Positions 1 through 23,837 of a stretch of DNA of 64,000 nt are shown piece after piece. The position numbers were made by a program, and so were the translations under genes. The stretch's first letter is position 1; each line of letters starts with the position of its first letter. The notes below the pieces were generated by a model, which saw only the letters and a program-made list of their open reading frames with translations, was not told where the DNA came from and did no database searches. Where the stretch lies: the sequence record NC_047884.1. One strand, 5' to 3'. Origin of the DNA: Escherichia phage saus132.

Positions 1-8
1 TTTAATTG

Positions 9-743
9 TTAGGCAACTTTTAATTTATCAATGAATTGTTGCGGAGTGGTACTATATTCCGCGCGTTCTTCCTCGGTCATACCTTCCCAACACATTTTTA
101 AACGTTCGGCTAGGAATTGATAATCGTTATCATCATCAAGCGATTCATCAATAAAGGTTTCACCGATCAATGTTACGCCGATTGATAGGATATCATTAAC
201 GGCTTGAGCGTCCAGCGTTTTAAATCCAGCACTTGCCGCCGCCGATAATACACCTTTATGATCATCAATCATTGTAAAATCAGCGTTAGGATATAGCTGT
301 TTAAACAGTTCAAAGTAATAAGATTTATATACAGCGTCTTTGCTGTGATATATTTCGCTAACCTTATTTGCATCAAAGTATTTATGTAATGTATCGCGGG
401 AAAATACGCGAATATTACTATTTCCGCGCCCTCGCAAGCCTTGTTTACGCAAATAAAAGTAATCGCTTTTAGACATTAAGCGAGCGGTACAAATAATATT
501 TAAAGTATTTGCATCATTCATGCACTGGCGCATATATTCAACCAACGGCAATAAAGAATCCTGCATAATTAAATCATGTTTACAGGCTTCGCGGAAATAC
601 TTATTTAAATCTAAATTCCCGTTATCATCAAAGCAAGGCGCTACACGGTGGAAAGAATTAATGATAGTTCCGTCTAAGTCCCAAATCATAACGCGGGAAA
701 TATGCGGGAAAGTGCGGGTAATATTCATATTGACTTGATTCAT
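9..743 (-). CDS. dmp: 5'-deoxyribonucleotidase, HAD-family phosphatase (T5 Dmp-like)
   Basis: 244-aa ORF; HAD motif I DLDGT near N-terminus; first gene of the pre-early block. Confidence 0.75.
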   Translation of the reverse strand: MNQVNMNITRTFPHISRVMIWDLDGTIINSFHRVAPCFDDNGNLDLNKYFREACKHDLIMQDSLLPLVEYMRQCMNDANTLNIICTARLMSKSDYFYLRKQGLRGRGNSNIRVFSRDTLHKYFDANKVSEIYHSKDAVYKSYYFELFKQLYPNADFTMIDDHKGVLSAAASAGFKTLDAQAVNDILSIGVTLIGETFIDESLDDDNDYQFLAERLKMCWEGMTEEERAEYSTTPQQFIDKLKVA

Positions 744-830
744 TTGTTACATTCTCCATTTAAGGGATTTAGGTTAATTCAATCTTGCCAGCTAATTATA
801 TTAGATTAGCTGGCAATGTTCAATTAACTA

Positions 831-1223
831 TTAATTAGTGAGGCCATACGCTAGCGCGTCACCGATAAAGGAAAGATCTTCACCATGTACGCTAGAACGG
901 ATACCCGCGCAAGTGTAAACCATCGCGCTAGCTTCTGGATTGCAGACCGGACACGGCTTAACAACTGCAAACGCTAGACCGGATTTAAGCGCATCAATAA
1001 TAATTGTTTGCACTGTCAAAGTATCAGCGTAAACTCCTTTTGCTTTTGTATGGCTTGCCACTTTGCCGGTATCATAAGCAAAGGTAGTAACCTGCAAAGC
1101 GTCGTTATAATTCAGCAAATCGAAATTAACTTGCCCCGCCTCGACGTGATAACGTTCGCCATTAGAATAAACTAGAACGATGGAAGAAGTAGCACGATCA
1201 AAAGGAATGTTTTGGTTTTTCAT
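831..1223 (-). CDS. hypothetical pre-early protein
   Basis: 130-aa ORF co-directional with dmp and A1; no recognisable motif. Confidence 0.5.
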   Translation of the reverse strand: MKNQNIPFDRATSSIVLVYSNGERYHVEAGQVNFDLLNYNDALQVTTFAYDTGKVASHTKAKGVYADTLTVQTIIIDALKSGLAFAVVKPCPVCNPEASAMVYTCAGIRSSVHGEDLSFIGDALAYGLTN

Positions 1224-1255
1224 GTTTATGACTCCAGATTATTTAATTACGGGAT

Positions 1256-1534
1256 TTATTGAAAAAATACATTTAAAGATAAATCAGTTTTACGAAAATA
1301 TGTTTCGTCGCCGTCTTTCCTTTCTTGATTAAGGTAATCGCCTGTCATTACCTGAATAGAATCTTTTCCGAAAAAGATCATATTTTCGCCAATATTACTA
1401 TCCCATACGGCATACATTCCCGCGTACATTCCACGGGTAACTAAATAAACGCAACTATCAAAAGACATTTCAGACCATGCAATATCTTCTAAACAATTGC
1501 TATCAGGGATAGATATATTAATTTTACTAGCCAT
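1256..1534 (-). CDS. hypothetical pre-early protein
   Basis: 92-aa ORF, tight spacing in same operon. Confidence 0.45.
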   Translation of the reverse strand: MASKINISIPDSNCLEDIAWSEMSFDSCVYLVTRGMYAGMYAVWDSNIGENMIFFGKDSIQVMTGDYLNQERKDGDETYFRKTDLSLNVFFQ

Positions 1535-1586
1535 TTAATAAACCTTTTATTAATGGCGGTATATTTCAACCGCCGATTAAATTTAA

Positions 1587-3251
1587 TTATGCAAAGAATT
1601 TTCCATTCTTAAAGTCAATCAAAGTACGCTGCCCGTTTGCGTATGTAATTAAATGGGTTTGCGTCCAGCTACTAGCGCCAACGTTGTAACCCATATCGAG
1701 ACTACCAGCAACGCCAGCGGTATAAACGCCGCCATAAATACTAGCCGTGTGAGTGTGGCCAGTATTGAGGCGTCCCAACTTTTTGAACTGTTTTGGATTG
1801 CCCCGACTGCCATTAATGCCGTTGTGACCATGAACACCGCATTCAATTCCTGCAATCTTGAAAGATTGGTCAGTGGTTAGGAAAATGGCGTTAAATTCGC
1901 AACCTGCAACGTTTCTAAGCGCGTAATCCAATACGTTAAAGGTATCATCTTGTTTTGCAATAGCTGCATAAATCGCGGCGTTTAGGCTGTGATACAGTTC
2001 GGCGTTTGCGGGGTCGTCTTTAATGTTAGCGTTGCGATCATCAAGCCAACGGGATAACGCCAAATCATGATTGGATTCCACGATGATTGTTTGAGAAAAA
2101 TCGCGCTCCATTGACTCCAACACGCGACCGGTATCAATGAGATCGTCAATAACTTTGTCACGTCCGGCGGCGTACTGTTTAGCTAGGAATACACCAGAGG
2201 CACGATTATGATGATTGCGGGATGTAAAATCGTGTACGTCATGGATAAACTGATATTTCGGTTTAAGAATATCAAGCAAGCTATTTTCGCCCACCCATGA
2301 TGCAACGGCGCAATCATCATCTAATTTTTCGGCGTGAATATCGCCATATTGCAAGCCTAAAACATGATCAGATGTTTTGAAACATCCGGTGGGCACAGCG
2401 CAAACGTTCAAATCGTAGAACATCCCGCTTTCGTCCATAGTTTCAAGCTGGCGAACAAAAAATTCTCCGTCGTCGTCAAATTCTACCAGTAAAGCACCGA
2501 AATTATGCAGCGCCTCGGCCTTTTGTCCTGCCTTTTGCTGAATATAGTTTTTAAGTGTAGCCGTTCCGGTGGAGTACATACGGCGCACTACTTCACCTTT
2601 TAACGCTGGCACACTTTCAGCGGTAATTTTTGCGTGACCAATTGCCAGACCTTCGATGTTTAAAGCCGTTGCAGTTTCTGCGAATCCAGAAAGCGGATAA
2701 TCTGCCGTTGGTAATACATTAATTTCAGCCATGAAAGCAAAACGGCGATTATTCAAAAACACGTTTTTCTCACAAATATATTTATCAAATGCGGGATCAT
2801 ATTTGATTTTTTCGCCGCCTTCCCCGTTCTGAAATCCGTTTTTGTTGTAAATGAATTTGCTAACAAGTAATTCAGCGCCGTAATAACTAGCGTACTGCTC
2901 AAGCGCTTTCAAAAAGTTTTTATGCGGGAAAGTATTGTTTTGAATCGACGTTAGAATAAAACGGCGACCGGATTTAACTTCCCACTGTTCAACGGTGCTA
3001 GAAACAATCCCCGCCGCTTCTGGGCGATCATCGTTTTTAATGGCTTTTACTGCCTTCGCTGCCTTCGGTTTCGCTGGCTTATTTGCTTCCAACCAGTCAC
3101 AAATTGCCGTTGAATGTTTCGGCGTATCATAAACAGCTTTTGAAATATCGTCGCAAACTTCCAATTTAGTAGCGCGTAAACGCTTACCGTAGAAGTTAAA
3201 ATCTGCGGCCATTTTCAAAATTTGAGCTTGTTTTTCTGCGGAAATATTCAT
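1587..3251 (-). CDS. A1: A1-like pre-early protein with metallophosphatase-type motifs (putative nuclease/phosphoesterase)
   Basis: 554-aa ORF; GDIHAE, VHGHNG and GHTHTAS motifs resemble calcineurin-like phosphoesterase signatures; size and position fit T5 A1. Confidence 0.7.
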   Translation of the reverse strand: MNISAEKQAQILKMAADFNFYGKRLRATKLEVCDDISKAVYDTPKHSTAICDWLEANKPAKPKAAKAVKAIKNDDRPEAAGIVSSTVEQWEVKSGRRFILTSIQNNTFPHKNFLKALEQYASYYGAELLVSKFIYNKNGFQNGEGGEKIKYDPAFDKYICEKNVFLNNRRFAFMAEINVLPTADYPLSGFAETATALNIEGLAIGHAKITAESVPALKGEVVRRMYSTGTATLKNYIQQKAGQKAEALHNFGALLVEFDDDGEFFVRQLETMDESGMFYDLNVCAVPTGCFKTSDHVLGLQYGDIHAEKLDDDCAVASWVGENSLLDILKPKYQFIHDVHDFTSRNHHNRASGVFLAKQYAAGRDKVIDDLIDTGRVLESMERDFSQTIIVESNHDLALSRWLDDRNANIKDDPANAELYHSLNAAIYAAIAKQDDTFNVLDYALRNVAGCEFNAIFLTTDQSFKIAGIECGVHGHNGINGSRGNPKQFKKLGRLNTGHTHTASIYGGVYTAGVAGSLDMGYNVGASSWTQTHLITYANGQRTLIDFKNGKFFA

Positions 3252-3359
3252 AACTAAATCAACTCCTATAAAGGGATAAATATTAATACTGGCAATATTG
3301 CCAAATATAACGCCTTACCTGAAGTGAGGACAATTTAAAAGGCGTTATAATTTGCAATA

Positions 3360-3605
3360 TTATTCTAGAATTGGCATAAGACTAGAACTAAAACCGCAAC
3401 TAATAGCCAGCGTTAAAAATATAATCGCCAGATATTTTTGTTTATTAGCTTGACGTTTAAACATATCAGCGGCATAAGCTGAATTAATGCCGATAATAGA
3501 AATTATATATTTGCCGTAATTAAATATAAATATAGCGGCAACTATAAATAAACCTAAAATAAACGCTTCACTAGGGAAGAAGATCATTTTAATAACTCCG
3601 GTCAA
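3360..3605 (-). CDS. small membrane protein
   Basis: 81 aa with two hydrophobic segments. Confidence 0.45.
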   Translation of the reverse strand: MTGVIKMIFFPSEAFILGLFIVAAIFIFNYGKYIISIIGINSAYAADMFKRQANKQKYLAIIFLTLAISCGFSSSLMPILE

Positions 3606-3645
3606 AGGGAAATTATAGCGGGGAATAATCCCCGCTAATTAAAAT

Positions 3646-4062
3646 TTATTCACCTGCGGCCTGTTTTACTTCCTCCGCTACGCCTAACAATTGCGCTACG
3701 GCTTCCAGCGTTTCCAGTTTTGCACTTTCCAGACTTGCCAGATCATCAGCGTCTTTGATAACGCCAGCATCAATGGCATGTTTAGCCATAACGCGCACAT
3801 AGTGAGCTTTACGGACACTAGACCCGCCGCCAACTTTACGCGGTTTATCACTTTTCTGGTACGCTTTTGCGCTTGTCAGTTTAGAACGTACAGAAACAGG
3901 GCTTGCAGCGCCAACGGCGGCGGCAATTTCTTTCAGGCCGTCACTGTTAGCAAATTCAATTCCGCTTTTAGCGACCATTTCAGAATACATAGAAACAGCC
4001 TTTTCGGTGTTTTCTTCGTTCCAAGAGAATTTTGCGGTTTTTTCGGTTTTAACGTTAGACAT
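3646..4062 (-). CDS. A2: A2-like pre-early protein (putative DNA-binding)
   Basis: 138-aa ORF immediately upstream of A1 in transcription order, as in T5; Ala-rich. Confidence 0.5.
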   Translation of the reverse strand: MSNVKTEKTAKFSWNEENTEKAVSMYSEMVAKSGIEFANSDGLKEIAAAVGAASPVSVRSKLTSAKAYQKSDKPRKVGGGSSVRKAHYVRVMAKHAIDAGVIKDADDLASLESAKLETLEAVAQLLGVAEEVKQAAGE

Positions 4063-4348
4063 AATTTAATACTCCATTCAATTATTAATTAAGGGATTAT
4101 GATTAACTAAATGTTAATCGCTATATATTCTATTAGCTAGAATATATAACGGAAACATTTTATTTTTATTTCCAGTTTCAAGCGGTTTATTAATTCCCGA
4201 ATATATTTATATTCTCACCTTATCCGGCTTGCCAGAGAATTAATAAGGCAACATTGTATTTATACGCTGTTTATTATTCCGTTCACGCTAGGAATATTTC
4301 GAGTTATCTTTATTGCCTAACTAAGCATGATATGTAAGGCGCATTAAT

Positions 4349-4600
4349 TTATGCGATAGCTTGCCATTTATCATCTTTCTGAATGATTTTTACAACGTCG
4401 CCAGATTTAACACGGACGTTATAAATAGGCTTGCCGTGGTTACTGCGTTCCGTTTCCGCATAGACCGCTTCAATCTTATCAAAGGGATCAAGCGCCGCAC
4501 CTTTAATACGTTCGGCTTTTCCGGTTAATTCATCCGTTTTAGTTACAAAAGGAATGAATACAGATTGACCTACTTTCGGCGCGGTAATAACGTTTTGCAT
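4349..4600 (-). CDS. hypothetical protein
   Basis: 83-aa ORF in pre-early block. Confidence 0.45.
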   Translation of the reverse strand: MQNVITAPKVGQSVFIPFVTKTDELTGKAERIKGAALDPFDKIEAVYAETERSNHGKPIYNVRVKSGDVVKIIQKDDKWQAIA

Positions 4601-4764
4601 TTTTAATACTCCGGTTTATTGGGGATTATTCCACAATAGCGCCTCGATACTTTGAAACGCTATTAGATTATAATCCGCTAGGAGTTAGCCTAAACATTAC
4701 CGTTATCCAAATTGTTAAAGAGCAGTTACTACGGGGAACATCTTAAAACCTATCGGCTAGCGTG

Positions 4765-4974
4765 TCAAGCGTTTTTTAAACTTTTTTCGATTTGATGTGA
4801 GTTATATAAATCAATCATTATATTACGCCACACCATTTCCAGACCTTGCTGCTTACCTTTCTTGTATTGCTTGAATCTGTATTTTACAGATCTTTGCGCT
4901 ACTGTCAACAAATTTTTTGTTCTGCTATCAAGTGACTTGATAGGCTTGCCAGTGATCAAAAGCGTTTGTTTCAT
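4765..4974 (-). CDS. hypothetical basic protein
   Basis: 69-aa ORF. Confidence 0.4.
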   Translation of the reverse strand: MKQTLLITGKPIKSLDSRTKNLLTVAQRSVKYRFKQYKKGKQQGLEMVWRNIMIDLYNSHQIEKSLKNA

Positions 4975-5129
4975 TTGAGATCCTCCAAAGCATATAAACC
5001 ATCCCCATCATTGCAGATTATTACCGCTTCCGAATGATTAGCATAGTATTCATTTGCAGTCTTTACCCATTGTTCGATTTTTTCGATAGTGTCGTGGGTA
5101 GCTGGATGATCGTTAAATATTATTGTCAT
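4971..5129 (-). CDS. hypothetical small protein (52 aa)
   Basis: ATG ORF whose TGA overlaps the ATG of the downstream gene (ATGA); below the track size cutoff. Confidence 0.3.
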   Translation of the reverse strand: MTIIFNDHPATHDTIEKIEQWVKTANEYYANHSEAVIICNDGDGLYALEDLK

Positions 5130-5504
5130 ATCGTCGATTCCTTATAATGTATAAGTTTACCGCCGATAGGCTTTAAGATGTTCCCTAGTTTTTAAAGAGC
5201 ATGGCGGTAAACTTCCCCGCCGTGTAGTTCGTCATTGCCGCCCTACGTGATAAATATTAGGGGAATACCGAAAAGGGCGCAACCATATTTTTGTAAAGAA
5301 ACGTAAAGACAAACGCCACCGCACCACGTCCAGCGGCGCACTAAATTTAATGAAACGGGCGCGCGAATAACACCAAAACAACCATTTTAGCAAGTAATTT
5401 TTTCATTTATATCTGCTCTAGGGTACTTGACAAAATCTAAAATCCTCGTGGTGAGGTTTTCTCGGTGTGCCCCTTATGGTTGCCTATCTTTTCCTTTGAG
5501 GCGC

Positions 5505-5531
5505 TTAGAATGCGTTACAGAGCGTTTTAGA
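5505..5531. repeat. 27-bp perfect direct repeat, copy 1 (TTAGAATGCGTTACAGAGCGTTTTAGA)
   Basis: identical 27-mer recurs at 8081-8107 in the same orientation. Confidence 0.8.
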
Positions 5532-5854
5532 CCCTGTTAATAACTTATACAAAAAGCAAAAATGAAATTTAATGAGTTATCCACTTGATTTTTCAAAAAA
5601 GTATTTTCTGCTATTATTTTTCATTGACAAATAAGTTTAGACGTGCATTGATTGGTTAGCAGACTAACAATCGCTAGGATGATAATCACGCTGGTGGATT
5701 GTAACAGCTGAAACAGTTAGCAGACTATTAATACTCTAAAAACCTATTAGCCAACTAACTATTTCATATTATATAATATACTTATAAATTAAAGAGAAAT
5801 AATAACTATAAGAAACTATCGGCTAAGTGAGAACCACTATCATTTAGGTTATTC

Positions 5855-5960
5855 ACAAAGTTATCCACAGCACAAAATAACTTGACGCAATAGGCGACGT
5901 TTTGGCGACTTATCCACAGACTTATATACAGGTTATCCTACTGTATAAATATACAGGGTA
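5855..5960. promoter_or_regulatory. left arm of ~105-bp inverted repeat carrying two DnaA boxes and a LexA-type box
   Basis: TTATCCACA at 5861-5869 and 5910-5918; TACTGTATAAATATACAGGG at 5939-5958 (CTGT-N8-ACAG); reverse complement of 8135-8250 is about 75-90 percent identical. Confidence 0.6.
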
Positions 5961-6095
5961 GAATGGTAGCAGTAACAACCGCAATCAAATTTAAGCGGCC
6001 TAGAACACGCTATACGGCGTTTTCTCACTGCTACCCTTATTATAATAAAGCCTTGTGTACGCTTACAGAGAACTAGAAATAGAAAACGCGCGGCA

Positions 6096-6209
6096 ATGGA
6101 AGCGGCAATGTTGGAAATGGTACAAAGTTTCAATATTGCTGAAATGATCGATGAAATGGTAAAAGGTATTGACATTTCAACCTTTACCCAAAATGCTGAA
6201 AGCGAGTAA
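6096..6209 (+). CDS. hypothetical small protein (37 aa)
   Basis: ATG ORF followed by hairpin plus T-run; below the track size cutoff. Confidence 0.3.
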   Translation: MEAAMLEMVQSFNIAEMIDEMVKGIDISTFTQNAESE

Positions 6210-6237
6210 TAATTAGTCTAATGTAAAGTTTTGTAAA

Positions 6238-6263
6238 GGTCGCCCTAATCGGCGGCCTTTTTT
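6238..6263 (+). terminator. putative intrinsic terminator
   Basis: GGTCGCC-CTAATC-GGCGGCC hairpin followed by TTTTTT. Confidence 0.5.
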
Positions 6264-6271
6264 GTTATAAT
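6263..6271 (+). promoter_or_regulatory. extended -10 promoter element (TGTTATAAT)
   Basis: TGnTATAAT about 58 nt upstream of the 6329 ATG; -35 weak. Confidence 0.35.
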
Positions 6272-6328
6272 GCCTTTACACCGAAACGGTGGATTGAAAA
6301 TTTTCCCCTGATTTCTAGGAGGCGTTAA

Positions 6329-6556
6329 ATGGTACATTCATCATCTTCTGCAATTTTTAACGGTATGGAATGGGTATCCGTTCCCGCTATTGTCAGCGTT
6401 ATGGTTTCTGAGTTCGGCATAGGTAAAACTTATGTTACCATTCAGGGGCTTTACGACAATGACAAGATTGACCAGCAAACCGCCGGATTTTTGCTGGATG
6501 AATTGAAAGCTAACCATTGCACTAAAAAGCAAGCGGCAAAAATTGTTTTAATGTAA
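6329..6556 (+). CDS. hypothetical protein
   Basis: 75-aa ORF; AGGAGG RBS upstream of ATG; first gene of an opposite-strand cassette. Confidence 0.55.
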   Translation: MVHSSSSAIFNGMEWVSVPAIVSVMVSEFGIGKTYVTIQGLYDNDKIDQQTAGFLLDELKANHCTKKQAAKIVLM

Positions 6557-6602
6557 TTATTAAAGGGGATATATTATCCCCTAATTTCTAGGAGCTAATA
6601 AA

Positions 6603-6752
6603 ATGGTTATTTTTCGATCTATTCTGGCTAGTATCTTGGGCGCTATTTTATCGTTGTTTGCAATAGCTTTCGGTGTTCATGCCGTTATTATCGGAGCAGG
6701 TATCGCGGGGTTTTCTTACTTGTTAGGCTGTATGACTGGTAAAGGGGAATAA
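6603..6752 (+). CDS. small membrane protein (49 aa)
   Basis: AGGAG RBS; hydrophobic; stop 2 nt before next ATG. Confidence 0.4.
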   Translation: MVIFRSILASILGAILSLFAIAFGVHAVIIGAGIAGFSYLLGCMTGKGE

Positions 6753-6754
6753 AA

Positions 6755-6967
6755 ATGTTAAAGAATGTTTCCCTTGCCCGTTCCAAAGGTTTTAAGCTGG
6801 TGGATGTTAACACGTTCGAGCGTCCAGATTGTAAAATTGAATATGTAGCACGCAACAAAAACGCTTTCCGTGTCACTGAAAAGAAATTTGACAAGCGCGG
6901 CAATTTGGTAGCCGAAACGGTTAAACACTTTGCCACTTTTTACGCTGCATTTCGTGGGGTATTATGA
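6755..6967 (+). CDS. hypothetical protein
   Basis: 70-aa ORF in plus-strand cassette. Confidence 0.5.
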   Translation: MLKNVSLARSKGFKLVDVNTFERPDCKIEYVARNKNAFRVTEKKFDKRGNLVAETVKHFATFYAAFRGVL

Positions 6968-7104
6968 AAACTTTATTTTCTATTTTGCTCGGTGCTGCTG
7001 GTGGCTTTATTGCTACCTGCTTTAAAAGTGATCCTGCACTGTTAGGCGTTTATTCGATTTGTTTTGGCTATTTGCTAGGGAGGCTGGCAGATGGTTATTT
7101 ATGA
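6964..7104 (+). CDS. small membrane protein (46 aa)
   Basis: ATGA overlap with upstream stop; hydrophobic. Confidence 0.35.
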   Translation: MKTLFSILLGAAGGFIATCFKSDPALLGVYSICFGYLLGRLADGYL

Positions 7105-7435
7105 GGGCAATCGCTTTGTTACTAATTGCCGTCCGGCATTATTAGCAAACTATTTAAACCAGCTTTCACCAGTTTATAAAGGCGTAATTAATATCTATGA
7201 GGGCAAAGCACATTATAAGATTAATGCCATTGTTGCCCGTGAACTAGCGTTTCAATTTTTAACTTTTGGATCTTGTGACGTTCAGGTTATGGGGGAAGCG
7301 TTAATAGCAGAAAATGAAAATGAATTTATCGACATTTTCCGCAAAGTATGTACAGAGCGCCTGATTATGAAAGGCGCGTATATTCAATCAACCGCTGAAA
7401 GTATAGAAACAGCGTTTCGAAAGGTGGCGCAATGA
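7091..7435 (+). CDS. hypothetical protein
   Basis: 114-aa ORF. Confidence 0.5.
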   Translation: MVIYEGNRFVTNCRPALLANYLNQLSPVYKGVINIYEGKAHYKINAIVARELAFQFLTFGSCDVQVMGEALIAENENEFIDIFRKVCTERLIMKGAYIQSTAESIETAFRKVAQ

Positions 7436-7629
7436 CTAAAGATGAAGCACTAGAAAAAATGAAACAAGGTTTCAAAGTTCGTCAAGAATACTTCACTAGT
7501 GAGGAATTTTTGTACATGAAAAATGGCGTGATCATGTCAGAAGATGGATATACTTTTAATGACTGGTTTTTCAAGATTACCCCTGCTACACGTTGGAAGC
7601 TAGACGGTTGGAGCGTCTACCGTGAATAG
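7432..7629 (+). CDS. hypothetical protein
   Basis: 65-aa ORF, ATGA overlap with upstream gene. Confidence 0.5.
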   Translation: MTKDEALEKMKQGFKVRQEYFTSEEFLYMKNGVIMSEDGYTFNDWFFKITPATRWKLDGWSVYRE

Positions 7630-7752
7630 CTGGTGGCGAAAAACACAAAGCCATAAATCTAATAATACCGCTGGGAAACATTCCCAGCGTTTACGATTTA
7701 GTAGCGGGCTTGTAATGGTAATAATAATCATTCTCATTCTAGGAGCGATGGC

Positions 7753-7992
7753 ATGGCTGTAAGAATTTTACGATATGTGGAACGTAAAGAAACCGATATT
7801 ATGCAACATCATTTAACTGATGCGCAATACGCGCAATTTTTAGAAATGCAGAAAAGCGGAGCTGATACGGCAACGCTAGGAGCGTGGATCAACTCAGTTT
7901 CAACGTGTACGCATTTTGATTCATACGGGTATACGCCAGCCGAAACCGTCCAGATCTTTGATGACTACGAGAAAGAATACATAGCAGACTAA
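7753..7992 (+). CDS. hypothetical protein
   Basis: 79-aa ORF; GGAG RBS. Confidence 0.5.
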   Translation: MAVRILRYVERKETDIMQHHLTDAQYAQFLEMQKSGADTATLGAWINSVSTCTHFDSYGYTPAETVQIFDDYEKEYIAD

Positions 7993-8080
7993 TAATAACG
8001 GGGCGCAACTATCGGCCCCGCTTTTTCTGGCCTTCCTCAAATTTCCCCTTATTAAAATACCTCCTCCAAAAATAAACGCG

Positions 8081-8107
8081 TTAGAATGCGTTACAGAGCG
8101 TTTTAGA
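8081..8107. repeat. 27-bp perfect direct repeat, copy 2
   Basis: identical to 5505-5531. Confidence 0.8.
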
Positions 8108-8134
8108 GCTATATTAGAGTTATTCACTACGCAG

Positions 8135-8250
8135 GAATACTGTATAAATATACAGTAGAATAACCTGTTGATAAGTCTGTGGATAACGCCTCAAAATCGC
8201 TAGGATTTTGTCAAGTCAAATCGTGCTGTTAATAAACCGGTGGATAACTT
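8135..8250. promoter_or_regulatory. right arm of inverted repeat with LexA-type box and DnaA boxes (inverted)
   Basis: TACTGTATAAATATACAGTA at 8137-8156; TGTGGATAA at 8178-8186; GTGGATAA at 8240-8247. Confidence 0.6.
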
Positions 8251-8279
8251 AAATAACAGTGTTTCTCACTTCGCTTTGT

Positions 8280-8424
8280 AAATGCGAGTCACTCTCATTA
8301 TCATTCGCGTTTCCCTTCCTAAATGCAAATCATTCTCATTCGTATTCCGGTAGTCAAATGATAACTATTCTCATTCGCATTCAACTTCTCAAATGCGAAT
8401 CAATCTCATTATCATTTGCATTTC
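8280..8424. repeat. four tandem ~35-bp imperfectly palindromic direct repeats (AAATGCGA..TCTCATT..TCATTCGC-like)
   Basis: units beginning near 8280, 8321, 8356 and 8391. Confidence 0.7.
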
Positions 8425-8459
8425 GGCAGGCAGGGCATTTTCTATTTGCCCTGCGCTTT

Positions 8460-9061
8460 TGTGCAAATCCGACATTTGCCCCCACGGATTACGTGCCAGC
8501 GTGCATGTGCGAATCCGACAATTTTTGGTAGTGTGCAAATCCGATGGCAAATATTTTTTATATGTGCGAATCCGACAATGAATTTTCCTAAAAACTCCAG
8601 CAATCCGCAACTGCGATGCAATCCAGCTGGGTTTACTAGAGTATGTGCAAATTCGACAAGTGTTAAGGTGTGCGAATCCGACAAGATTTTTGTGACTTCG
8701 ATGAGAGGGTGTGTGATTGTGTGGGTTTGGGGAGAAGTGCGAATCCGATGAGATTTTGGGAGGAACTACGGAAGGAGCAGCGGTGATGGTGCTTTAGCAC
8801 CGGTTTGCTGCATTTTTGGGGATAATGCGGGATGTTTTGGATAGAATTGAGATTATGGGAGATAAAGCGAAATTTTATTAGCAAAATGGGGCAAAATAGC
8901 TTGACAGGTGAAAATTCCTGTGGCTCTAAAAACTCAGGCAAATATGGGCCTTCGGCCCGAAATAATGCTGCTATTTTCAGTGTTCCTAAAAACTTTGGAG
9001 ACTCCTATCAATGTGCAAATCCGACCATAAATTTCTAGAAACATAATGTGCAAATCCGACA
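8460..9061. repeat. array of nine same-orientation 15-bp repeats, consensus TGTGCRAATCCGAY
   Basis: copies at about 8460, 8506, 8532, 8563, 8644, 8669, 8737, 9012 and 9047; irregular spacing; no credible ORF. Confidence 0.75.
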
Positions 9062-9547
9062 GTAATTTCCAGACTGACAAGAGTCAATTATTTTTCCTAG
9101 AAATAACCGCCTCCCTATAACCGCCCTGTATAGGAAACCGCCCTAGGATATGTAACGTTGGAGAGAAACTGCCTTAGAATGCGTGAGTTTTCCTAGAAAC
9201 TTAGGAGTCTACTAGAAAGTGGTGTGCCATCCTAGCAGATGAGCGGCAACCGGTGTATCATCTTGAACACAAATATTGCCTTTAAATATTATAAGGTAAA
9301 TAAAAGTTAATATACCCCCATTTCATGAGAGTTAGTCCCTCTAGGCGCGTGCGATTTGATACATCCTCCTGAGTCTCGGGGAGGAAGAACAATTGACGAG
9401 AACCTGCAAGCAGAACCGTCATCAAGTATTTTCCTACGAGGAATGATGTAAATCTACGGCCTAGAGGTAAAAACAAGTTGATGTTTTTAATCTATGAGAT
9501 TATTATAACATGCAGCTCAAATAATGTCAAGAAGATTTTGCTAACGT

Positions 9548-10273
9548 TTATAGATCGTGATTGACTTTGAGTATGACTCCCCTCGATGCCATGAAAAGGA
9601 ATGTTGCTAGGTAAGATGACTCGGAATTTAGCGCAGAATAATCTACACTTCCTCTAGGTCTAGTTTCTTGTTTAGTGTCAAGAATTGTTTCGATATCAAA
9701 CTTAACAGATCTTGCAACTTTTCTAGCTTGTTCAGGATCACGTAAGATTTCAAAGTGAGCAGCATCTAGAATATGGTTAGATGATGTTGATTCGTCAACT
9801 ATACTTAGATGAACCTGCGCAAGTGTAGATACGATTCCTAGCTTTAATTCAGATAGAGAAGAATATGGTGGTTCTACTTTCTTTGTAAGTCTAGGGAGAT
9901 GATCGTATTTACATTGCTTTTGAGGAATCATCAGAATATTAGGATAACATTCTAAACATGACTTTGCATTTCCTTCTTTAAAATGCGGGAGTTCTTTATC
10001 TGCAAAGACGTGGAATGAATCTGCTGAAAATCCTTTAATAGTAGGATCAACAGCTTGAATCAGACGACGTAAACTAATATATGAAGGAGCTAATGTGACT
10101 TCTTCTGCATCTTTATTATATTTAGGTTGCCCACTAGCATTAATATATGCTGGATAAAACTCTGCACAAAATGCTACTGCATGAGCTTCTAACTCATTAA
10201 GTTCGGAAACATTCTTTCCATTACAAGCTCTAGCTAACTTAATAATCTCTGCTAAATTCTTTTTTATACTCAT
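9548..10273 (-). CDS. hypothetical protein
   Basis: 241-aa ORF, first gene after the repeat region. Confidence 0.55.
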   Translation of the reverse strand: MSIKKNLAEIIKLARACNGKNVSELNELEAHAVAFCAEFYPAYINASGQPKYNKDAEEVTLAPSYISLRRLIQAVDPTIKGFSADSFHVFADKELPHFKEGNAKSCLECYPNILMIPQKQCKYDHLPRLTKKVEPPYSSLSELKLGIVSTLAQVHLSIVDESTSSNHILDAAHFEILRDPEQARKVARSVKFDIETILDTKQETRPRGSVDYSALNSESSYLATFLFMASRGVILKVNHDL

Positions 10274-10578
10274 ATATAATCATCCGGTTTTGGTTTAGTT
10301 TTTGTTACTGATTTCACTGAAGGATCTAACTTAATCCACGTAAACCCTAGCTGCTCAGATAAGTGAGATATATTTCTAGGTGTTATTTTTATATTTGGAG
10401 GTAACTTAAATACTAGGTCTTTAAGTAACTTCATATCATCTGAACCAATGAAGAGAATATACTGCATATCTTCTTTTTGTTCATATTCGTTTTCAGATAA
10501 TGTACTAACTCCGACTGTATGTTTATTGAGTGTGGCCACCTTACAGCGGCCTACAGTAAACTGAGTAATTATATCCAT
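10270..10578 (-). CDS. hypothetical protein
   Basis: 102-aa ORF, overlapping stop/start with neighbours. Confidence 0.5.
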   Translation of the reverse strand: MDIITQFTVGRCKVATLNKHTVGVSTLSENEYEQKEDMQYILFIGSDDMKLLKDLVFKLPPNIKITPRNISHLSEQLGFTWIKLDPSVKSVTKTKPKPDDYI

Positions 10579-11189
10579 TAACGACCTCTAGCCTTATCTG
10601 CATCAATAGCTTCGAATACTTTCGTTAACATTTCTTCAAGCTCACCATCTTTGCTAGGATTGCTCAAATGGATAGTATAAGAGTTCCTAGAAACTACGGA
10701 GTCTTCCTGTGCTCCGCGATCTTTTGCAAAGCTCATCATTGTAACGCCAGCTTTATTCCACTCGTCTACACTAGATGCTTCCCCAAACTTATATGATTGC
10801 GTATTACTTATCACACCACCACAAGGAACATTGTGCATATCCGACATTAATCTTTTATCAGAATTATTCAACATTGCGATTGGCCCCGACTGCCACGGAT
10901 CTCGAATAGTCACTGGAGTACTCGGGCGGTTCACCTCAGTCTTCACGAGTTTGTATCCTGCATCGATTAGTGAATTAATCAGATTATCCGCCGGGATGCG
11001 AGCTGTGCCAAAGATCTTACGAGCATTCATGAGCTTAGCCTGAAACTCTTTGCAAGCCTGAAGATCAATGTGCAAAAACGACAGTTGCATAGATTTAAAC
11101 TGTACTGTAGCAGTCAGATCTTTAAAGCTGTAATCCCATGTGTCGAGTTCGTGGTCTGCAACTACTTTAATGGTTTGTTGTGTAAACAT
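10578..11189 (-). CDS. hypothetical protein
   Basis: 203-aa ORF. Confidence 0.55.
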   Translation of the reverse strand: MFTQQTIKVVADHELDTWDYSFKDLTATVQFKSMQLSFLHIDLQACKEFQAKLMNARKIFGTARIPADNLINSLIDAGYKLVKTEVNRPSTPVTIRDPWQSGPIAMLNNSDKRLMSDMHNVPCGGVISNTQSYKFGEASSVDEWNKAGVTMMSFAKDRGAQEDSVVSRNSYTIHLSNPSKDGELEEMLTKVFEAIDADKARGR

Positions 11190-23084: not shown

Positions 23085-23837
23085 TTATCCAACTAGTGGT
23101 TCTAGCTCTAAGTCACAGAAGTGGTACACATCGGTACGAAGTGCATCAAGTCCGTTGAAGGTATTCTCAAATTTATGAGAAATGTATTTTTCAGGAATAC
23201 CGCTTTCAGACGGATGATCTGTCTCGATGCGATACTTATTAGTAATACCAGATTCAACCTTAATAAGTATGGAATCCATATCTAGAGTATTGGATTCCAT
23301 GATTAGCTCTCCCTCATTTGGAAAACGCACATCGGTAACGATTGCGACGTCTGGGTCGTCTTTATCGATGGATTGCTCCAGAATTATGAGCCAAATGCGT
23401 TCATGCACCAGCTGCCTTCCTAACTCAGTACCTACAAGCTGTAGCATTTTTCTTGGGGAGATAAATACGCTATACAGCGCATCATCAGCTTGCCCAATTA
23501 ACTGCTGAGGATCAAGGTATTTTCCTTCAAAAATAGGCCAAACGTACGAGAAGTCCTCAAACTTATCGATACCATACTTAAACCATACGTCTCTAGCTCG
23601 CTCCAGCTGAGATTGTGTGACCGTAAACCATTGGTCAATCTCCTTTCCCCTGCGCTCTCCCAGAAACTCTGGAGTTACCCCGAGGATTACGGATGCAAGT
23701 TCGTAAACGGGTTTAGCAAAACTGTAACGACGGGATAAACACGTTGGGAACGTGTCATTACACCAGTCAATCATTAATTCTGCAACGGTATCTTTTCCCG
23801 CACCAGCCTCACCATGTAAACCGACTAATACTGACAT
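23085..23837 (-). CDS. dnk: deoxynucleoside monophosphate kinase
   Basis: 250 aa; Walker A GEAGAGKDT near N-terminus. Confidence 0.55.
   Translation of the reverse strand: MSVLVGLHGEAGAGKDTVAELMIDWCNDTFPTCLSRRYSFAKPVYELASVILGVTPEFLGERRGKEIDQWFTVTQSQLERARDVWFKYGIDKFEDFSYVWPIFEGKYLDPQQLIGQADDALYSVFISPRKMLQLVGTELGRQLVHERIWLIILEQSIDKDDPDVAIVTDVRFPNEGELIMESNTLDMDSILIKVESGITNKYRIETDHPSESGIPEKYISHKFENTFNGLDALRTDVYHFCDLELEPLVG

What the first reader, a model, noticed from the sequence alone, without database searches (positions are those of the whole stretch)
8584..9201. Recurrent TCCTARAAAC motif within and after the 15-mer array
At least five copies (about 8584, 8925, 8983, 9095, 9190) of TTCCTAAAAACT / TCCTAGAAAC lie between and after the 15-mer repeats. 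This suggests a second binding-site class in the same regulatory landscape.
Basis: seen in the sequence. Interest (0 to 1): 0.35.

Follow-up and report, generated by a model that had tools for sequence, protein, structure and literature searches.

The report
Conserved repeat at T5-like terminal-repeat boundary
The recurring TCCTARAAAC words are real: they are the core of a 15-19 bp element, conserved in T5-like phages, and one copy lies exactly where the packaged genome's right end is cut, but what binds the element is unknown.

Summary
The window is bases 1-64000 of T5-like phage chee130_1 (Epseptimavirus). The finding lies in the long non-coding "Repeat Region 3" / injection-stop region, which spans the right edge of the left terminal repeat. 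The 15-mers are T5's DRD repeats.

- **Observation:** it holds. Exact TCCTARAAAC occurs at 8586, 8984 and 9191, with near copies at 8924, 9033 and 9095, all on the + strand (3 exact against 0.01 expected; 0 of 2000 local shuffles).
- **What the motif is:** comparison of 27 T5-like regions shows it is the core of a longer element, TYCYARAAACTYMRG, often followed by CAAT. Tequintavirus and Epseptimavirus phages carry 2-5 copies. In some lineages copies sit at different positions or are inverted, yet keep the sequence.
- **Link to the genome end:** copy 2 sits in a near-invariant 88-bp block. In T5 (two records), BF23 and MM-2 the annotated terminal repeat ends exactly at CTC|TAAAAACTC, which is window 8926|8927.
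- **What it is not:** a promoter, the T5 nick consensus, or a genome-wide motif.
- **Best reading (inferred):** oriented protein-recognition sites tied to forming the genome end (terminase), with a rival role in restarting DNA injection.

This is a modest new member of a known, functionally unsolved repeat landscape.

The parts
8586..8604 (+). Copy 1: TCCTAAAAACTCCAG+CAAT. It lies inside the terminal repeat, 8 nt after a DRD 15-mer.
   Evidence: Exact match. Conserved as TCCYAAAAACTCCAGCAATC in 21 of 24 Tequintavirus/Epseptimavirus regions, including two where the upstream DRD has been replaced.
8924..8938 (+). Copy 2: CTCTAAAAACTCAGG (followed by CAAAT). By homology, the right boundary of the terminal repeat, which is the physical right end of the genome, falls between 8926 and 8927.
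   Evidence: One mismatch to the 15-mer. The annotated terminal repeat in T5 AY587007, T5 AY543070, BF23 (determined with PhageTerm) and MM-2 ends at GTGG[A/C]TC|TAAAAACTC; in Stitch it ends 5 nt further right.
8884..8971 (+). Near-invariant block around copy 2. It contains TTGACA (8901-8906), GAAAATTCCTGTGG, copy 2 and the hairpin GGGCCTTCGGCCC (8946-8958).
   Evidence: Mean majority fraction of at least 0.97 across 24 phages. It is the only part of 8440-9290 that BLAST matches in Klebsiella and Erwinia phages. Klebsiella phages carry a different perfect hairpin, CACGGTGacaCACCGTG, at the same place.
8984..8998 (+). Copy 3: TCCTAAAAACTTTGG, in unique DNA 58 nt right of the boundary.
   Evidence: Exact core. 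Most relatives have GTTCCTAAAAACTTAGGC(A/G)(A/T)T here; a minority have GTCCATGAAAACTTAGGCAAT.
9032..9043 (+). Weak copy TTTCTAGAAACA (palindrome TTTCTAGAAA), between two DRD 15-mers.
   Evidence: Conserved in about 17 of 24 relatives. The others carry AGTTTTTAAAC here, which contains the reverse complement of TAAAAACT.
9094..9105 (+). Weak copy TTCCTAGAAATA, abutting the first AACCGCC repeat.
   Evidence: YCTAGAAATAACCGCCCTCCC is conserved in all Tequintavirus/Epseptimavirus regions.
9191..9215 (+). Copy 6: TCCTAGAAACTTAGG, followed by a degenerate inverted partner AGTCTACTAG (an imperfect palindrome).
   Evidence: Exact. In 7 phages the forward copy lies about 45 nt upstream and a reverse-strand TCCTAGAAACTCCAG occupies this spot. 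T5-type phages have an extra reverse copy at +224.
10685..10699 (+). Probable outlying copy TCCTAGAAACTACGG, inside the coding sequence of the early gene 10578..11189 (minus strand).
   Evidence: One mismatch here, but a perfect TCCTAGAAACTCCAG at the homologous place (+1.75 to +2.7 kb from the boundary) in 10 relatives, despite diverged flanks. It overlaps conserved codons Val-Ser-Arg, so coding constraint contributes.
8461..9062 (+). Context: nine DRD 15-mers (GTGCRAATCCGAC), seven to the left of the boundary and two to the right. Copy 1 and the weak copy at 9032 each follow a DRD by 7-8 nt.
   Evidence: T5's annotation labels these 'direct repeat D copies 1-9'. Erwinia phage KEY has DRD followed by TATATTTT(A/G)CCTAGAA.

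Best explanation
**What is shown.**
- The TCCTARAAAC words are the core of a genuine cis-element of 15-19 bp, conserved across the lineage. Its consensus is T-Y-C-Y-A-R-A-A-A-C-T-Y-M-R-G, often followed by CAAT.
- The element is confined almost entirely to the non-coding DNA that spans the right boundary of the long terminal repeat of T5-like phages.
- One copy lies exactly on that boundary. In relatives with annotated ends, the packaged genome's right end lies immediately 5' of its TAAAAACT.

**What is inferred.**
- The copies are recognition sites for a sequence-specific protein.
- The most likely reader is the phage's DNA-maturation (terminase) machinery.
- The boundary copy, embedded in an invariant 88-bp block with a hairpin, would be the cleavage and initiation site for packaging. 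By the general rule for tailed phages that the last DNA packaged is the first ejected, packaging should start at this right end, because the left end is injected first.
- The flanking same-orientation copies, interleaved with the DRD 15-mers, would act as accessory or non-cleaved binding sites that assemble and orient the complex.
For: - **Enrichment and clustering:**
- **Orientation:** all six window copies are on the + strand.
- **Conservation of the longer element:** 27 distinct T5-like regions at 49-96% identity keep the element at homologous places.
- **Sequence kept when position or orientation differs:** some lineages carry a reverse-strand TCCTAGAAACTCCAG(CAAT), at +224 in T5-type phages and +281 in another group. 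Others carry a forward copy about 45 nt further left. The 9033 copy has an alternative allele containing the reverse complement of the core.
- **Sharp edges:** similarity between paralogous copies stops at the edges of the element.
- **Boundary coincidence:** four records (T5 twice, BF23, MM-2) end the repeat at CTC|TAAAAACTC, and Stitch ends 5 nt away.
- **Conserved block:** the block around that copy is the most conserved non-coding stretch, and the only one detected in Klebsiella and Erwinia phages. The hairpin next to it is replaced by a different hairpin in Klebsiella phages.
- **Candidate readers exist:** a terminase small subunit (genome 109678-110160) and the DNA-binding pre-early protein A2 (window 3646-4062) are both encoded.
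Against: - No binding or cleavage data exist for this phage.
- Its own record puts the repeat end at 8717, not 8926.
- The cut falling on one copy is only mildly improbable by chance. The copies cover roughly 6-15% of the non-coding region.
- The left genome end of T5-like phages has no copy of the motif.
- If the 15-mer alone directed cleavage, copy 1 inside the repeat would also be cut.
- Column by column, most copies are no better conserved than the highly conserved flanks: majority fraction 0.74-0.94 against 0.875 background. Only copy 2 stands out, at 0.99.
- A conserved copy 1.8 kb away inside a gene is hard to fit to a terminase site.
- The DRD 15-mers, seven to the left and two to the right of the cut, are at least as good candidates for terminase binding.
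- The strict 15-mer is absent from Klebsiella phages.
Confidence: 0.33

Rival explanations
1. The sites serve the restart of DNA injection. The copies would be recognition sites for a pre-early DNA-binding protein (A2, possibly with A1) or a host protein, acting on the first DNA to enter after the injection stop. The action could be pulling or ratcheting the second-step DNA in, or the specific cleavage to the right of the stop signal that Davison predicted.
For: - Every copy lies to the right of the 7.9% nick and stop region. The first is about 130 nt past the nick consensus at 8450-8457. None occurs anywhere in up to 10 kb of terminal repeat to the left, in any phage examined.
- All are in one orientation, and their density falls with distance: -337, 0, +61, +108, +170, +268, +1761.
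- A2 is a DNA-binding protein required for second-step transfer.
- Davison's model needs a specific site inside the repeat, to the right of the stop signal. Copy 1 fits that position.
- The neighbouring DNA carries host-protein boxes: DnaA, and LexA-like and Fur-like sequences.
Against: - There is no evidence that A2 is sequence-specific.
- Most copies are outside the repeat, whereas Davison's model needs the site in both repeats.
- This reading does not explain why one copy coincides with the genome end.
- During the pause this DNA is probably still in the tail or cell envelope.
Confidence: 0.25
2. The motif has no function of its own. The copies would be remnants of local duplications (for example of DRD-plus-tail units) inside a region that is conserved as a whole for other reasons, and the overlap with the cut site would be coincidence.
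For: - Per-column conservation of the copies is not above that of the surrounding non-coding DNA.
- Two copies directly follow DRD repeats as part of a 29-nt unit (family D1).
- The cut-site overlap has roughly a 6-15% chance expectation.
Against: - Paralogous copies remain 80-100% identical to one consensus in all lineages, although the lineages differ by about 30% in this region.
- Inverted and relocated copies keep the 15-mer.
- Similarity stops sharply at the element's edges.
- A perfect copy persists inside a diverged gene; the chance expectation for a perfect match genome-wide is about 0.02 (my calculation from base frequencies).
Confidence: 0.15
3. The motif is a transcription signal: a promoter or terminator element, or an operator for an early-gene regulator.
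For: - A -35-like TTGACA lies 17 nt upstream of copy 2.
- A perfect sigma-70 promoter (9530-9502, minus strand) points into the region.
- Copy 6 and the relatives' copy 3 can form a small hairpin (TCCTA-N6-TAGGA).
Against: - No promoter-like site in the scan includes a copy, and no acceptable -10 follows the TTGACA.
- No canonical terminator overlaps a copy.
- The motif is absent from the other intergenic regions of the 113 kb genome.
- Rfam and tRNA scans found nothing.
- The T5 records annotate no promoter here.
Confidence: 0.06

Closest known systems
Named repeats of T5 'Repeat Region 3' / injection stop signal (DRA-DRE, IRC'/IRD', palindromes C-J; Heusterspreute 1987, Wang 2005, Davison 2015 and 2020)
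   Same: It occupies the same non-coding region at the right end of the left terminal repeat and running into unique DNA. It is interleaved with the DRD 15-mers, conserved among T5-like phages, and of unknown function.
   Different: This element is not among the features annotated in AY587007 or AY543070, and it is not named in the text of the 2020 preprint. I could not read Davison 2015 or the preprint's supplement, so earlier description cannot be excluded. Unlike the named repeats, one copy marks the repeat boundary itself.
Reiterated terminase recognition elements flanking a cut site (lambda cosB R-sites, P1 pac hexamers, SPP1 pacL/pacR) - from general knowledge, not tested here
   Same: Short oriented repeats cluster within a few hundred bp on both sides of the position where the genome end is made.
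   Different: Binding and cleavage are not shown. The left terminus has no copy. One copy lies 1.8 kb away inside a gene. The DRD 15-mers could equally be the terminase elements.
Short repeat arrays next to the terminal repeat of T7 (CCTAAAG-like heptamers; recalled from Dunn & Studier 1983, not checked here)
   Same: A phage with exact direct terminal repeats carries arrays of a short A-rich word beside the repeat boundaries, and their function is unresolved.
   Different: The phage family, word and repeat length (160 bp against about 9-10 kb) all differ. The resemblance is by analogy only.

Membership tests
Repeat landscape of the T5-like injection-stop / Repeat Region 3 | Lies in the large untranslated region at the right end of the left terminal repeat, next to the DnaA-box inverted repeats, DRC and DRD repeats and the 7.9% nick. 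| tested here: met
   - The window is identical to chee130_1 at the same coordinates.
- The same order of elements is seen as in T5.
- The nick consensus R/GCGCRGG is present at 8450-8457 on the minus strand.
Repeat landscape of the T5-like injection-stop / Repeat Region 3 | Conserved in position among T5-like phages. | tested here: met
   Twenty-four Tequintavirus/Epseptimavirus regions keep the copies at about -337, 0, +61 to +70 and +228 to +328. The match is partial in Erwinia phage KEY, and in Klebsiella phages only the boundary copy remains.
Repeat landscape of the T5-like injection-stop / Repeat Region 3 | Already catalogued as a named repeat. | tested here: not met
   It is not among the repeat_region or misc_feature entries of AY587007 or AY543070, nor in the preprint text.
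Terminase recognition/cleavage (pac/cos-type) site | Coincides with a physical genome terminus. | tested here: met
   Met for copy 2 only, and by homology. The repeat ends at CTC|TAAAAACTC in T5 (two records), BF23 and MM-2. This was not verified for chee130_1, whose record says 8717.
Terminase recognition/cleavage (pac/cos-type) site | Same recognition element at the other terminus. | tested here: not met
   The junction between unique DNA and the right repeat has a different conserved block (TCTCGAAATTTCATAAGATTACACATG) and no copy of the motif.
Terminase recognition/cleavage (pac/cos-type) site | Bound by the small terminase subunit, cut by the large subunit, and required for packaging. | not testable with these tools
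   All that could be shown is that a terminase small-subunit gene exists (phrog_3802).
Sigma-70 promoter element | -35 and -10 hexamers at 16-18 nt spacing that include the motif, and recurrence at other transcription units. | tested here: not met
   None of the 13 promoter-like sites overlaps a copy. The motif does not recur at other intergenic regions.
T5 site-specific nick site | Matches the nick consensus 5'-R/GCGCRGG-3'. | tested here: not met
   The motif has no GCGC. The nick site lies at 8450-8457, about 130 nt to the left of copy 1.
Palindromic operator of a dimeric DNA-binding protein | Inverted half-sites at a fixed spacing. | tested here: inconclusive
   Only the copy 6 site is an imperfect palindrome (CCTAGAAACT-N4-AGTCTACTAG). 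In other lineages the better half-site is on the opposite arm. Copies 1-3 are single and asymmetric.

The most novel reading that the evidence does not exclude
The 15-19 bp element would be the recognition sequence of the nuclease complex that creates the exact right boundary of the ~9-10 kb terminal repeat of T5-like phages. That complex could be terminase, or the A1/A2 nuclease proposed to cut to the right of the injection stop signal. The non-cleaved copies would load and orient the complex. This would give the first defined cis-site for T5 end formation or for the restart of second-step transfer.
Probability: 0.2. Interest if true: 0.7.

Novelty: new member of a known kind. Interest (0 to 1): 0.38.

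Why it matters
T5's two-step DNA injection, and the way its exact ~10 kb terminal repeats are made, have been open questions for over 50 years. The cis-acting region is known only as a thicket of repeats.

This work gives concrete, mutable targets:
- a short, oriented element that is conserved across genera;
- one copy that sits on the repeat boundary;
- an invariant 88-bp block with a hairpin beside it.

Copies 3-6 lie in single-copy DNA, so they can be mutated without having to change both terminal repeats. These targets suit binding, cleavage and packaging assays.

The result also flags that the terminal-repeat coordinates in this phage's GenBank record are probably wrong. If the element proves to be only a by-product of duplication, the outcome is a modest refinement of the repeat catalogue.

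Tried and rejected
- **RNA genes:** an Rfam scan of 7900-9700 gave only two sub-threshold chance hits, and there were no tRNAs.
- **Promoter or terminator:** the consensus scan placed no site on a copy.
- **Nick site:** the T5 nick consensus R/GCGCRGG does not match the motif.
- **Shared motif at both termini:** the left junction was retrieved from T5, chee130_1 and 5 IMG/VR contigs and has no copy.
- **Stronger conservation than the flanks:** not found, except for copy 2.
- **CTAG peculiarity:** CTAG is not rare in this genome (312 sites in 64 kb), so CTAG content is not informative.
- **Neighbouring genes as the binding protein:** PHROG and Pfam searches of the seven flanking ORFs examined gave 'unknown function' or no family.
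- **Copy at 23658:** it lies inside the conserved dNMP kinase gene and has one mismatch, so I treat it as chance plus coding constraint.
- **Host transcription-factor consensus sequences:** I compared the motif with RcsB, PhoP, TrpR, IHF and sigma-54 consensus sequences from memory. None fitted convincingly. These were not formal tests.
- **Literature:** the 2020 preprint, the BF23 paper and the 2026 T5 preprint do not describe the motif. Davison 2015 and the preprint's supplement could not be read.
- **Record boundaries used with caution:** Seafire's PhageTerm 'repeat end' maps to the nick site, and Kenya-K36 and K37 and the chee/saus records give other positions. Only the four concordant records were relied on.

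Full report
**Where this is.** The window is identical, at the same coordinates, to bases 1-64000 of T5-like phage chee130_1 (MF431736.1, Epseptimavirus).

The finding lies in the ~1.5 kb gene-free stretch 7993-9547, between the rightward pre-early genes and the leftward early genes. In T5 this stretch is "Repeat Region 3", which contains the injection stop signal. It sits mostly in the left terminal repeat and runs on into unique DNA.

Reading from the left, it holds:
- a palindrome and the DnaA-box inverted repeats;
- the DRC repeats;
- the 7.9% nick (consensus R/GCGCRGG; present at 8450-8457 on the minus strand);
- nine DRD 15-mers.

**The observation.**
- Exact TCCTARAAAC occurs at 8586, 8984 and 9191. 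The 12-mer TTCCTARAAACT is exact at 8585, 8983 and 9190.
- The copies cited at ~8925 and ~9095 are degenerate: CTCTAAAAAC and TCCTAGAAAT. An unlisted copy, TTCTAGAAAC, lies at 9033.
- All are on the + strand.
- Against 2000 dinucleotide-preserving shuffles of the intergenic region itself, the counts are 3 against 0.012 (10-mer) and 7 against 0.22 (YCTARAAAY). No shuffle reached the observed value.
- In the non-redundant 113.4 kb genome, 4 of the 8 matches with at most 1 mismatch to the 15-mer consensus fall within 620 bp.

So the motif is real and far above chance for this composition.

**What the motif really is.** I aligned 27 distinct homologous regions, 49-96% identical to the window. They comprise T5, BF23-like, DT57C, Eps7-like, IMG/VR contigs, two Klebsiella phages and Erwinia phage KEY.

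The copies are conserved as longer elements:
- Copy 1 is TCCYAAAAACTCCAGCAATC. The T of "TCCTA" is C in most phages.
- Copy 2 is CTCTAAAAACTCAGGCAAT.
- Copy 3 is GTTCCTAAAAACTTAGGC(A/G)(A/T)T.
- Copy 6 is TTCCTAGAAACTTAGGAG.

The family consensus is TYCYARAAACTYMRG, often followed by CAAT. Positions A-R-A-A-A-C-T are invariant among the retrieved sites.

Tequintavirus and Epseptimavirus phages carry 2-5 strict copies each. Three observations argue that the sequence itself is maintained:
- Paralogous copies stay close to one consensus in every lineage, although the lineages differ by about 30% here.
- Similarity between copies stops sharply at the element's edges.
- Copies differ in position or orientation between lineages while keeping the 15-mer. 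T5-type phages have an extra reverse-strand TCCTAGAAACTCCAGCAAT at +224. Seven phages have the forward copy about 45 nt further left and a reverse copy at the usual place. The 9033 copy has an alternative allele containing the reverse complement of the core.

One caveat applies. Column by column, the copies are not better conserved than the surrounding DNA, which is itself highly conserved. The majority fraction is 0.74-0.94 against a background of 0.875. Only copy 2, at 0.99, stands out.

**The link to the genome end.** Copy 2 sits in an 88-bp block (8884-8971) that is nearly invariant in all 24 Tequintavirus/Epseptimavirus regions. This block is the only part of 8440-9290 that BLAST still detects in Klebsiella and Erwinia phages.

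In both T5 records (AY587007 and AY543070), in BF23 (boundary determined with PhageTerm) and in MM-2, the annotated terminal repeat ends at GTGG[A/C]TC|TAAAAACTC. In Stitch it ends 5 nt further right. By homology, the right end of this phage's repeat, and so of its packaged genome, is 8926|8927, immediately 5' of the motif's TAAAAACT.

The record's own annotation (repeat 1-8717, with dmp starting at base 9) disagrees. It is probably approximate.

A hairpin (8946-8958) follows 7 nt after copy 2. Klebsiella phages have a different perfect hairpin at the same place, which suggests that the structure matters.

The coincidence of the cut with a copy is suggestive but not compelling, because the copies cover about 6-15% of the region. 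The left terminus has a different conserved block and no copy.

**What it is not.**
- None of the promoter-like sites includes a copy, and the TTGACA upstream of copy 2 has no usable -10.
- Nothing matches Rfam or tRNA models.
- It is not the nick consensus.
- It does not recur at other intergenic regions.

A probable outlying copy lies inside the early gene 10578..11189. It is perfect (TCCTAGAAACTCCAG) in 10 relatives at +1.75 to +2.7 kb, despite diverged flanks, although it overlaps conserved Val-Ser-Arg codons. No copy occurs anywhere to the left of -340 in up to 10 kb of repeat, in any phage.

**Mechanism.**

*Shown:*
- a conserved, oriented element confined to this locus;
- one copy at the repeat boundary.

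*Inferred:*
- The copies are protein recognition sites.
- My best guess (confidence 0.33) is that the DNA-maturation machinery reads them. The boundary copy in its invariant context would be the cleavage and initiation site. By the general rule for tailed phages, packaging should start at the right end, because the left end is injected first. The other copies, interleaved with the DRDs, would be accessory sites.

*Rivals:*
- Sites for A2/A1 or a host factor acting in the restart of second-step transfer (0.25). This explains why all copies lie to the right of the stop and nick region, in one orientation, with density falling with distance.
- A by-product of duplication (0.15).
- A transcription signal (0.06).

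Nothing available here can identify the protein.

**Comparison with what is known.** The region and its other repeats have been known since 1987. This particular element is not annotated in the T5 records and is not named in the 2020 preprint. I could not read Davison 2015.

In design it resembles the reiterated elements around the lambda cos, P1 pac and SPP1 pac sites, and the short repeats beside T7's terminal repeat. Those comparisons rest on general knowledge and are analogy only.

**Verdict.** The feature is real. It is a new member of a known but functionally unsolved repeat landscape, and of moderate interest.

Noticed in passing
window 8138-8157 and 5939-5958: A near-consensus LexA (SOS) box, TACTGTATAAATATACAGTA, lies at 8138-8157 with 1 mismatch to TACTGTATATATATACAGTA. 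A second CTGT-N8-ACAG box lies at 5939-5958 (3 mismatches) in the partner inverted repeat; no such match occurred in shuffles. This is T5's 'palindrome D', next to the DnaA boxes. It is conserved in the Klebsiella and Erwinia phages. LexA is not mentioned in the 2020 preprint or in any paper found.
   Followed up: partly
window 8280-8420: The DRC repeats and palindromes resemble Fur boxes. They match 13-14 of 19 positions of GATAATGATAATCATTATC. There are 15 hits of at least 12/19, against 0.5 in shuffles, although the count is inflated because the sequence is repetitive. Erwinia phage KEY has GCGAATGATAATCATTAAT (15/19), and a Klebsiella phage has GAGAATAATTATCA. This is of interest because T5's receptor FhuA is iron-regulated.
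   Followed up: partly
window 9105-9173; also about 40 nt inside the left end of the repeat (L004 ~695-705, L003 ~650): A third repeat family, AACCGCC(C)T, occurs three times, plus AACTGCC once, about 180-250 nt to the right of the repeat boundary. It is highly conserved. An ACCGCC(C) also lies just inside the left terminus in T5, chee130_1 and others. So this word, unlike TCCTARAAAC, occurs to the right of both end-forming sites.
   Followed up: partly
window 9502-9530 (minus strand) and 9280-9500: A perfect sigma-70 promoter (TTGACA, 17-nt spacer, TGnTATAAT) points leftward into DNA with no convincing gene. T5 has a similar TTGACA-17-TATCAT at the homologous place (read by eye). The ~200 nt downstream of the promoter look unrelated between T5 and this phage (read by eye), and the only local ORF (9282..9476) has no family. 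This may be an unannotated small RNA or peptide.
   Followed up: no
window 1-8717 (record annotation) against 8926|8927: The MF431736 terminal-repeat coordinates look approximate. The record starts about 115 nt inside the T5-type left end, since dmp starts at base 9. It ends the repeat 209 nt short of the boundary found in T5, BF23 and MM-2. The same authors' record for saus47N stops at the homologous place.
   Followed up: partly
L005 (Salmonella phage Seafire) locus 1066, about window 8455: Seafire's 'terminal repeat predicted with PhageTerm' ends at CCCTGCG|CTTTTG, which is the major 7.9% nick site rather than the true repeat end. Site-specific nicks can evidently mislead read-start-based terminus callers in T5-like phages.
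   Followed up: partly
window 7432-7629: A 65-aa pre-early ORF gives a weak, below-cutoff hit to the Tad2-like (Thoeris anti-defence 2) domain: E = 0.0025, 18.8 bits against a cutoff of 25.
   Followed up: no
window 8946-8958; L017 ~1583-1599: The hairpin GGGCCTTCGGCCC, 7 nt after the boundary motif, is invariant in Tequintavirus and Epseptimavirus. In Klebsiella phages it is replaced by an unrelated perfect hairpin, CACGGTG-ACA-CACCGTG, at the same place. It is not a canonical terminator on either strand.
   Followed up: partly
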